Assembly (NCBI RefSeq): GCF_000026545.1
Contig: NC_011601.1
Length of the DNA stretch: 64,000 nucleotides
Source of the DNA: Escherichia coli O127:H6 str. E2348/69
Lineage (GTDB): Bacteria; Pseudomonadota; Gammaproteobacteria; Enterobacterales; Enterobacteriaceae
Strand: one strand, 5' to 3'
Position numbers and translations under genes: made by a program. The notes below the pieces were generated by a model. The model was not told the DNA's origin and did not search any database. It saw nothing but the letters and a program-made list of their open reading frames with translations. Shown in pieces: positions 60,363 to 63,074 of this stretch (positions are counted from its first letter, which is position 1; every line of letters begins with the position of its first letter).

Positions 60363-62252
60363 TTATGCGCTACGACGCAGCATACCCTGTTTTTTCAGCC
60401 ACACCAGCAGAATGGAGATAGCCGCAGGCGTGACGCCAGAAATACGCGAAGCCTGGCCAATAGAGGCCGGTTTGTGATCGTTAAGTTTGGCGATCACTTC
60501 GTTAGAAAGACCGGATACCTGGCGGTAATCCAGCGTCGCTGGTAGCAGGGTATTCTCGTTACGCAGCTGCTTTTCGATCTCATCTTGCTGGCGCGCGATA
60601 TAACCTTCGTATTTAACCTGAATCTCAACCTGTTCCGCCGCCTGTTCGTCTGTCAACGCAGGGGCAAACGGTGTCAGCGAGGTTAATTTTTCATAAGTCA
60701 TTTCAGGACGACGCAGCAGATCTTCACCACTTGCTTCACGGGAAAGCGGCGCAGTCAGGTGAGCATTCACTTCGGCTGCAGCTTCCGCCGACGGGGTTAC
60801 CCAGGTTGATTTCAGACGCTGACGCTCACGCTCGATATTCTCAAGTTTCTCGTTAAAGCGCGCCCAACGTTCGTCATCCACCAGGCCCAGTTCACGACCG
60901 ATTTCAGTCAAACGCAGATCCGCATTATCTTCGCGCAGCATCAGACGATATTCTGCGCGCGAGGTAAACATACGATACGGTTCTTTGGTTCCTAAAGTGC
61001 ACAGGTCATCAACCAGTACGCCGAGATATGCCTGAGAACGCGCCGGAGCCCAACCTTCTTTGTCAGCAGACAGACGAGCAGCGTTAAGACCAGCCAGCAA
61101 ACCTTGCGCAGCGGCTTCTTCGTAACCGGTAGTGCCGTTAATCTGACCAGCAAAGAACAGCCCCTGGATAAACTTGCTCTCCAGCGTCGGTTTCAGGTCG
61201 CGTGGATCGAAGAAGTCATACTCAATGGCATAACCCGGACGCACGATCTTCGCGTTTTCCATCCCCTGCATGGAGCGGACGATTTGCATCTGCACATCGA
61301 ACGGCAGGCTGGTGGAGATACCGTTCGGATAAATTTCGTTAGAGGTCAGCCCTTCCGGTTCAAGGAAGATCTGATGCTGATTTCTGTCGGCAAAGCGCAT
61401 GACTTTGTCTTCGATCGACGGGCAGTAGCGTGGGCCGACACCTTCGATCACCCCTGCGTACATTGGGCTACGATCGAGGTTACTGCGGATCACATCATGG
61501 GTTTTCTCGTTGGTATGAGTGATATAACACGGCACCTGCTGGGGATGCTGGGACGCATTGCCCATAAACGAGAATACCGGCATTGGGTTATCGCCATGCT
61601 GTTGCGCCAGTACGCTAAAGTCGATGGTTCGAGCATCAATACGCGGTGGTGTCCCGGTTTTCAGACGACCAACTCGCAGCGGCAGTTCACGCAAACGGCG
61701 AGAAAGCGGAATGGACGGCGGATCACCAGCACGGCCACCGCTGTAGTTATCCAGACCGATATGAATTTTACCGTCGAGGAACGTCCCAACGGTGAGCACG
61801 ACAGCTTTGGCACGGAACTTCAGTCCCATTTGGGTAACGGCACCGACCACGCGATCGTTTTCGACAATAAGATCTTCAACCGCCTGCTGGAAGATCATCA
61901 GGTTCGGTTGGTTCTCCAGCGCCGTACGTACCGCCTGACGGTAGAGCACACGATCCGCTTGAGCTCGGGTAGCGCGAACCGCCGGTCCCTTGCTTGCGTT
62001 TAGTATCCTAAACTGGATACCCGCCTGATCGATCGCTTTCGCCATCAGACCGCCGAGTGCATCCACTTCTTTTACCAGATGTCCCTTCCCAATACCGCCG
62101 ATCGCCGGGTTGCAGCTCATCTGCCCCAGAGTGTCAATATTGTGTGTCAAAAGCAGAGTCTGTTGACCCATACGCGCCGCGGCCATCGCGGCCTCGGTGC
62201 CTGCATGACCCCCGCCAATGATGATGACGTCAAAAGGATCCGGATAAAACAT
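60363..62252 (-). CDS. mnmG: tRNA uridine 5-carboxymethylaminomethyl modification enzyme MnmG (GidA)
   Basis: 629-aa [32 protein letters not shown]... (FAD-binding GGGHAG). Confidence 0.98.
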
Positions 62253-62339: not shown

Positions 62340-62620
62340 GGGATCCTGGGTATTAAAAAGAAGATCTATTTATTTAGAGATCTGTTCTATTGTGATCTCT
62401 TATTAGGATCGCACTGCCCTGTGGATAACAAGGATCCGGCTTTTAAGATCAACAACCTGGAAAGGATCATTAACTGTGAATGATCGGTGATCCTGGACAG
62501 TATAAGCTGGGATCAGAATGAGGGGTTATACACAACTCAAAAACTGAACAACCGTTGTTCTTTGGATAACTACCGGTTGATCCAAGCTTCCTGACAGAGT
62601 TACCCACAGTGGATCGCACG
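62340..62620. other. oriC: chromosomal replication origin oriC
   Basis: Three AT-rich 13-mers GATCTATTTATTT / GATCTGTTCTATT / GATCTCTTATTAG at about 62363..62406; DnaA boxes R1 TGTGGATAA (62420..62428), R2 TTATACACA (62526..62534), R3 (about 62561..62569) and R4 TTACCCACA (62600..62608); dense GATC sites; sits between mnmG and mioC. Confidence 0.95.
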
Positions 62621-62630
62621 ATCTGTATAC

Positions 62631-63074
62631 TTATTTGAGTAAATTAATCCACGATCCCAGCCATTCTTCTGCCGGATCTTCCGGAATGTCGTGATCAAGA
62701 ATGTTGATCTTCAGTGTTTCGCCTGTCTGTTTTGCACCGGAATTTTTGAGTTCTGCCTCGAGTTTATCGATAGCCCCACAAAAGGTGTCATATTCACGAC
62801 TACCAATACCGATTGCGCCAAAGCGGACCGCAGAAAGATCGGGCTTCTGTTCCTGCAATGCTTCATAGAAAGGAGAAAGGTTGTCCGGAATATCTCCGGC
62901 ACCGTGGGTTGAGGTGATAACCAGCCAGATCCCCGAGGCAGATAAATCTTCCAACAGCGGACCGTGCAGCGTTTCGGTGGTAAAACCCGCCTCTTCCAGC
63001 TTTTCAGCCAGGTGTTCTGCTACATATTCGGCACCGCCGAGGGTGCTGCCGCTGATAAGAGTGATATCTGCCAT
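62631..63074 (-). CDS. mioC: flavodoxin-like FMN-binding protein MioC
   Basis: 147-aa ORF MADITLISGSTLGGAEYVAEHLAEKLEEAGF... Confidence 0.95.
   Translation of the reverse strand: MADITLISGSTLGGAEYVAEHLAEKLEEAGFTTETLHGPLLEDLSASGIWLVITSTHGAGDIPDNLSPFYEALQEQKPDLSAVRFGAIGIGSREYDTFCGAIDKLEAELKNSGAKQTGETLKINILDHDIPEDPAEEWLGSWINLLK

What the first reader, a model, noticed from the sequence alone, without database searches (positions are those of the whole stretch)
62600..62608. oriC R4 DnaA box reads TTACCCACA, one mismatch from the consensus
R1 (TGTGGATAA, i.e. TTATCCACA on the other strand) is a perfect consensus box, but the box at the R4 position reads GAGTTACCCACAGTGG. From memory, R1 and R4 are the two perfect high-affinity boxes in E. 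coli K-12 oriC, and a T to C change at box position 4 falls outside even the relaxed consensus TTWTNCACA. If real, this would weaken the right-hand high-affinity DnaA site that anchors orisome assembly. My recollection of the K-12 sequence is not exact, and several other single-base differences from it are visible across oriC, so this may simply be strain divergence.
Basis: partly seen in the sequence, partly recalled or inferred. Interest (0 to 1): 0.4.

Follow-up and report, generated by a model that had tools for sequence, protein, structure and literature searches.

The report
Strain-specific SNP in oriC R4 box
The replication origin of E. coli strain E2348/69 really does carry a one-base change (T to C) in the R4 binding site for the initiator protein DnaA; this was already reported in 2015, is very rare in E. 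coli, and is probably tolerated, since the same variant is fixed in a group of Citrobacter species.

Summary
The window is E. coli O127:H6 E2348/69 (100% identity over 25 kb), and the oriC R4 DnaA box at 62600-62608 reads TTACCCACA, against TTATCCACA in K-12.

Five bases differ from K-12 across oriC. Four are shared with the closest relatives found in the collection. The R4 T>C at 62603 is the only difference from those relatives, so it is derived.

It is already published: Frimodt-Moller et al. 2015 found it in 1 of 59 strains, with no functional test.

New here:
- **E. coli census.** Among 5,426 complete genomes, 5,382 have the consensus R4 and 5 have T4C. Those 5 are E2348/69 three times plus two unrelated strains, on three oriC haplotypes. 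None of the other 26 single-base R4 variants occurs.
- **DnaA.** The window's DnaA protein is identical to K-12's, so no compensating change in the protein.
- **Other genera.** TTACCCACA sits at R4 in all 12 contigs examined from one Citrobacter clade. One Salmonella enterica lineage has TTATCAACA.

Most likely this is a mildly affinity-lowering but tolerated change. R4 is dispensable on the chromosome. No affinity measurement for TTACCCACA was found, so the functional effect is inferred. Interest is low.

The parts
62600..62608 (+). oriC DnaA box R4, variant TTACCCACA (consensus TTATCCACA); the T>C change is at 62603, box position 4
   Evidence: positional homologue of K-12 R4
62588..62596 (+). 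Low-affinity DnaA site C1 (TTCCTGACA), 3 bp left of R4 and unchanged from K-12. It is the first site filled cooperatively from R4-bound DnaA.
   Evidence: for coordinates; role from Leonard & Grimwade 2015
62555..62585 (+). Rest of the right-half low-affinity array: C3 62555-62563, C2 62566-62574, I3 62577-62585. R3 overlaps it on the minus strand at 62561-62569.
   Evidence: 2-bp spacing as described
62526..62534 (+). DnaA box R2 (TTATACACA), consensus
62475..62516 (-). Left-half array: R5M 62475-62483, tau2 62486-62494, I1 62497-62505 (carries the shared SNP at 62499), I2 62508-62516
62420..62428 (-). DnaA box R1, perfect TTATCCACA
62351..62406 (+). AT-cluster (62351-62362) and the duplex-unwinding element 13-mers L (62363-62375), M (62379-62391) and R (62394-62406); identical to K-12
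62631..63074 (-). mioC, the flanking gene to the right of oriC; its stop codon lies 23 bp from R4
60363..62252 (-). mnmG (gidA), the flanking gene to the left of oriC
19650..21053 (-). dnaA. The encoded initiator is 100% identical to K-12 DnaA, with 16 synonymous nucleotide differences, so the DNA-binding domain is unchanged.

Best explanation
This is a real, derived T>C transition at position 4 of the R4 DnaA box in the chromosomal origin of EPEC strain E2348/69. R4 normally binds DnaA with high affinity through most of the cell cycle. It nucleates cooperative filling of the adjacent low-affinity sites C1, I3, C2 and C3 (the right-half DnaA subcomplex). Position 4 is the first base of the TnCACA segment, which the DnaA domain IV recognition helix reads in the major groove. 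The change most likely lowers the intrinsic affinity of R4 and so makes nucleation of the right-half oligomer less efficient. This step is inferred, not measured. The origin still works. R4 is dispensable on the chromosome, the variant keeps 8 of 9 consensus bases and its spacing to C1, DnaA itself is unchanged, and R2 with Fis and IHF can support assembly. The natural distribution suggests the cost is small. T4C is the only R4 substitution seen in 5,426 E. coli genomes, it arose on three different haplotypes, and it is present in every contig examined from one Citrobacter clade.
For: Identity and derived state. All closest relatives and all contigs sharing the same MioC or MnmG alleles have TTATCCACA.

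Prior report: (PMC4585315).

E. coli census: 3 + 2 genomes with T4C, 542 + 4,840 with consensus, and no other single-base variant. The three carriers have different oriC haplotypes.

DnaA is identical to K-12.

How the box is read: the helix of residues 434-451 reads TnCACA in the major groove and Arg399 reads TTA in the minor groove. Any deviation from TTATNCACA is stated to reduce affinity. Right-half assembly depends on DnaA at R4.

Tolerance of R4 loss: cells remain viable, with asynchrony or slower growth.

Citrobacter: all 12 contigs examined from sp. R56, Awk 4, NCU1 and related samples have TTACCCACA. The R56 and Awk 4 loci differ by 4.5% over 3.8 kb.
Against: No binding measurement for TTACCCACA was found, so the size and even the existence of an affinity drop is inferred. 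Other single-mismatch boxes in oriC (R3, R5M) are low-affinity, so the drop could be large rather than mild. Conversely, the presence of the variant throughout a Citrobacter clade could mean it is effectively neutral. The Citrobacter clade also has a C1 site closer to consensus (TTTTCACCA, 2 mismatches against 3 in E. coli). That might compensate there, and E2348/69 lacks it. DnaA of the Citrobacter clade was not examined.
Confidence: 0.6

Rival explanations
1. Functionally neutral polymorphism. In its oriC context (flanks, supercoiling, cooperative neighbours) TTACCCACA is still occupied by DnaA essentially as the consensus box is, and initiation timing is unchanged.
For: The variant is present in every contig examined from a Citrobacter clade, across about 4.5% sequence divergence and multiple independent samples. 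It recurs in three E. coli backgrounds. A Salmonella enterica lineage also lives with a non-consensus R4, TTATCAACA.
Against: The variant is very rare in E. coli, at 5 of 5,426 genomes and one strain per lineage. That pattern fits purifying selection. Position 4 lies in the major-groove-read segment. Reviews state that any deviation from TTATNCACA lowers affinity.
Confidence: 0.27
2. Selected or laboratory-acquired change. The mutation arose or was enriched during more than 50 years of laboratory propagation of E2348/69, or was selected in nature because it retunes initiation timing.
For: All three carrier assemblies on this haplotype are E2348/69 or engineered derivatives. No metagenome contig carries the variant. 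Three identical hits among 27 possible substitutions is unlikely under uniform neutral mutation. My estimate is about 0.002 for three independent events and about 0.04 for two, assuming each transition is twice as likely as each transversion.
Against: No wild O127:H6 relatives could be examined, so there is no evidence either way on timing. The other two E. coli carriers are ordinary isolates (tapir faeces, human blood). Recurrence is equally explained if T4C is simply the least harmful change.
Confidence: 0.1
3. Sequencing or assembly error in the source record.
For: None found.
Against: The base is identical in three RefSeq assemblies, and a 2015 paper reports the same change for E2348/69.
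Confidence: 0.01

Closest known systems
E. coli K-12 oriC R4 DnaA box (TTATCCACA)
   Same: Same position, orientation, 3-bp spacing to C1, flanking GATC sites, and an identical DnaA protein.
   Different: One base differs: T>C at box position 4. That takes it outside TTWTNCACA.
Single-mismatch boxes within oriC: R3 (TTATCCAAA) and R5M (TCATTCACA)
   Same: Each has one mismatch to TTWTNCACA.
   Different: Their mismatches are at position 8 and position 2. [quoted passage not shown] Whether a position-4 mismatch behaves the same way is unknown.
Engineered chromosomal R4 mutants (R4 deletion, Bates 1995; Weigel 2001; R4 replaced by a Thermotoga DnaA box, Noguchi 2015 and eLife 2025)
   Same: All affect the same site. 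They set the worst-case phenotype: viable cells with asynchronous or inhibited initiation, slightly slower growth, and dependence on Fis, IHF or PriC.
   Different: Those constructs abolish DnaA recognition. The natural variant keeps 8 of 9 bases, so its effect is expected to be smaller.
Natural R4 variants in other Enterobacteriaceae (found here)
   Same: A Citrobacter clade (sp. R56, Awk 4, NCU1) has exactly TTACCCACA at R4 in a collinear oriC. A Salmonella enterica lineage has TTATCAACA.
   Different: In those lineages every contig examined carries the variant, rather than a single strain. The Citrobacter clade also has a different C1 site (TTTTCACCA).

Membership tests
Enterobacterial oriC (E. 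coli type) | Lies between mnmG (gidA) and mioC, with three 13-mer unwinding repeats, boxes R1, R2 and R4, two arrays of low-affinity sites, and a GATC cluster | tested here: met
   Gapless alignment to K-12 oriC with 5 substitutions in 351 bp. Site map and 14 GATC sites. Flanking genes.
High-affinity R-type DnaA box (R4) | Positional homology to K-12 R4, with the same orientation and spacing to C1 | tested here: met
High-affinity R-type DnaA box (R4) | Matches the 9-mer consensus TTWTNCACA | tested here: not met
   TTACCCACA has C at position 4; consensus as quoted
High-affinity R-type DnaA box (R4) | Binds DnaA with nanomolar affinity and stays occupied through the cell cycle | not testable with these tools
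   No measurement for TTACCCACA was found in the literature searches
High-affinity R-type DnaA box (R4) | Cognate DnaA with an intact domain IV | tested here: met
   DnaA is 100% identical to K-12
Low-affinity DnaA sites of oriC | [quoted passage not shown] | tested here: inconclusive
   The variant has only one mismatch, which does not meet the stated definition. However, the one-mismatch boxes R3 and R5M are also classed as low-affinity.

The most novel reading that the evidence does not exclude
T4>C at R4 could be a recurrent 'soft' tuning allele. On this reading it is the one substitution that lowers R4 affinity enough to shift initiation timing or synchrony without crippling the origin. 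It would have been reached independently in several E. coli lineages and become the only state seen in a Citrobacter clade, possibly together with a stronger neighbouring C1 site. That would make it a natural experiment on how much high-affinity anchoring an enterobacterial origin needs.
Probability: 0.2. Interest if true: 0.4.

Novelty: already known. Interest (0 to 1): 0.2.

Why it matters
E2348/69 is the prototype enteropathogenic E. coli strain used in many laboratories. A weakened R4 could subtly alter its replication timing, its growth at high rates, or its dependence on Fis, IHF or PriC. The wider point is modest. R4 is under very strong constraint in E. coli, yet one specific change is tolerated repeatedly and is the only state found in a related Citrobacter clade. 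The 'perfect R4' is therefore not an absolute requirement for an enterobacterial origin.

Tried and rejected
- **Compensating change in DnaA.** Rejected: the protein is identical to K-12.
- **Wider lineage polymorphism.** Rejected: the closest relatives and every contig sharing the E2348/69 MioC or MnmG alleles have T.
- **Tracing wild relatives of E2348/69.** The look-up of encoding contigs collapses contigs with the same neighbouring proteins, so it could not resolve this.
- **Metagenome scans.** Two scans for the variant found nothing.
- **Literature searches.** Searching for the 9-mer itself returned only unrelated papers. The primary papers on box specificity (Schaper & Messer 1995, Speck 1997, Fujikawa 2003, Kaur 2014) are not held. 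The position-4 effect therefore rests on reviews.
- **New site created by the change.** Considered and dropped by inspection of the sequence: no GATC or CCWGG site is made or lost. The short CCAC-A-GTGG palindrome next to R4 is unchanged by the SNP and also occurs in relatives that have T at position 4.

Full report
**Observation.** The surrounding 351 bp align without gaps to E. coli K-12 MG1655 oriC. The K-12 box at the same position, R4, is TTATCCACA. R1 at 62420-62428 on the minus strand is a perfect TTATCCACA. The site is therefore the true positional homologue of R4, with a T>C change at box position 4 (window 62603).

**Source of the window.** The oriC segment and the last 25 kb of the window are 100% identical to three RefSeq chromosomes. 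These are strain E2348/69, 'EPEC E2348/69 variety 2', and an engineered derivative called 'EPEC1'. The next best genomes are 99.2-99.3% identical over 25 kb. The window is enteropathogenic E. coli O127:H6 E2348/69.

**Which differences are strain-specific.**
- Five bases differ from K-12 across oriC: 62499, 62553, 62603, 62611 and 62648.
- Four of these are shared with the closest relatives, for example CFSAN061771.
- The R4 change at 62603 is the only difference from those relatives.
- Contigs elsewhere that encode exactly the same MioC or MnmG protein as E2348/69 all have TTATCCACA.
- The change is therefore derived and, in the data available, confined to this one strain on its own haplotype.

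**Already published.** Frimodt-Moller et al. (Front Microbiol 2015; 6:1011, PMC4585315) compared 59 E. coli genomes. They state that O127:H6 E2348/69 deviates in DnaA box R4 by a dT to dC change at position 4, in 1 of 59 strains. They did not test its function. They argue in general that even small oriC changes may cost fitness. No follow-up paper was found.

**Census in 5,426 complete E. coli genomes.** I used 31-base queries that megablast can only seed if the central box is exact.

| R4 state | Right-flank haplotype | Genomes |
|---|---|---|
| TTACCCACA | GTGG | 3 (all E2348/69) |
| TTACCCACA | GTAG | 2 (A27 from tapir faeces; GN02323 from human blood) |
| TTATCCACA | GTGG | 542 |
| TTATCCACA | GTAG | 4,840 |

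- The total is 5,387, against 5,383 genomes that cover at least 80% of the oriC query. The census is essentially complete.
- A concatenated query of all 27 possible single-base R4 variants on both haplotypes returned only the same five T4C genomes. None of the other 26 single-base variants occurs.
- The three carrier lineages have different oriC haplotypes, with differences 8 bp and 27 bp from the SNP. There are at least two, and probably three, independent origins.
- I estimated the chance that independent events hit the same substitution under uniform mutation, with each transition twice as likely as each transversion. It is about 0.002 for three events and about 0.04 for two.
- The same census for R1 and R2 found one genome with an R1 variant (TTATCCCCA). 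It found 16 with R2 variants. Fourteen of those are at the degenerate fifth position.
- The high-affinity boxes are under very strong constraint, and T4C at R4 is the one non-degenerate change that recurs.

**No compensation in DnaA.** dnaA lies in the window at 19650-21053 on the minus strand. Its product is identical to K-12 DnaA at all 467 residues, with 16 synonymous nucleotide differences.

**Other genera.**
- I scanned one genome per species (GTDB) for the R3...TGATCC...R4 architecture with a non-T at R4 position 4. Two hits came back, both Citrobacter (sp. R56 and sp. Awk 4), and both read TTACCCACA.
- These two loci are 95.5% identical to each other over 3.8 kb and about 83% identical to E. 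coli.
- Contigs encoding the same or nearly the same MioC were recovered from independent read sets, metagenome assemblies and Citrobacter sp. NCU1. All 12 contigs examined from this clade carry TTACCCACA.
- C. rodentium-type, C. amalonaticus-type and sp. Marseille-Q6884-type loci have TTATCCACA.
- A Salmonella enterica MioC allele indexed in 123 blocks of the collection sits next to R4 = TTATCAACA. Another S. enterica allele sits next to TTATCCACA.
- Non-consensus R4 boxes therefore persist in natural enterobacterial lineages with the same origin architecture.
- JGI metagenomes held no contig with the T4C variant.

**Mechanism.** What is established comes from reviews held in the library.
- R1, R2 and R4 are the high-affinity sites, occupied for most of the cell cycle.
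- DnaA at R4 recruits DnaA to C1, 3 bp away. An oligomer then fills I3, C2 and C3 toward R2.
- Right-half assembly depends on DnaA at R4.
- The domain IV helix (residues 434-451) reads TnCACA in the major groove, and Arg399 reads TTA in the minor groove. Position 4 is therefore a directly read base.
- Any deviation from TTATNCACA is said to reduce affinity.
- Complete loss of R4 on the chromosome is viable. It causes asynchrony or slower growth and dependence on Fis, IHF and, at low temperature, PriC.

What is inferred is that T4C lowers R4 affinity in E2348/69, and that the consequence is at most the mild R4-null phenotype and probably less. I found no measurement for TTACCCACA. The rarity in E. 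coli argues for some cost. The recurrence in E. coli and the uniform presence in the Citrobacter clade argue that the cost is small.

**Verdict.** The feature is real but ordinary and already described. It is a single-strain SNP in a well-understood site, with a plausible but untested mild effect. The census and the cross-genus comparison are new details. They do not change the category.

Noticed in passing
L016, L017, L027 (Citrobacter oriC), C1 site immediately left of R4: The Citrobacter clade with R4 = TTACCCACA has C1 = TTTTCACCA, which is 2 mismatches to TTWTNCACA. The other species compared have 3 mismatches: E. coli and C. amalonaticus TTCCTGACA, Salmonella TTTCCACCA, C. rodentium TTCTTACCA. 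A stronger C1 beside a weaker R4 might be compensation. E2348/69 has the ordinary C1.
   Followed up: partly
L035, L036 versus L037 (Salmonella enterica oriC): One Salmonella enterica lineage, next to a MioC allele indexed in 123 blocks of the collection, has R4 = TTATCAACA (C>A at position 6, also outside the consensus). Another S. enterica lineage, 95.4% identical over the region, has TTATCCACA.
   Followed up: partly
E. coli genomes, R1 and R2 boxes (window 62420-62428 and 62526-62534): Census of single-base variants in 5,426 genomes. R1 varies in one genome (EC14, TTATCCCCA). R2 varies in 16: fourteen TTATGCACA at the degenerate position, one CTATACACA and one TTATAAACA.
   Followed up: yes
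window 62645-62653 (+), inside the mioC 3' end: The shared SNP at 62648 (T here, C in K-12) changes MioC Val to Ile near the C-terminus. It also turns TAACCCACG into TAATCCACG, one base closer to a DnaA box, 45 bp right of R4 in the same orientation. All three E. coli lineages with R4 T4C have the T, but so do relatives with a consensus R4.
   Followed up: no
window 62363-62594 (maps to NC_000913.3 3925744-3925975): The oriC feature annotated in the K-12 RefSeq record ends 6 bp before R4, so R4 lies outside the annotated origin.
   Followed up: no
whole window: 9-mers within one mismatch of TTATCCACA occur 33 times, against 12.7 expected from shuffles. A second TTACCCACA lies at 23449-23457 (-), inside the 548-aa ORF at 22400..24046 (+).
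   Followed up: no
window 62497-62505 (I1) and 62553: The shared SNP at 62499 lies in low-affinity site I1 (TTATACTGT here, TTATACGGT in K-12; 3 mismatches either way). The SNP at 62553 lies between R2 and C3.
   Followed up: partly
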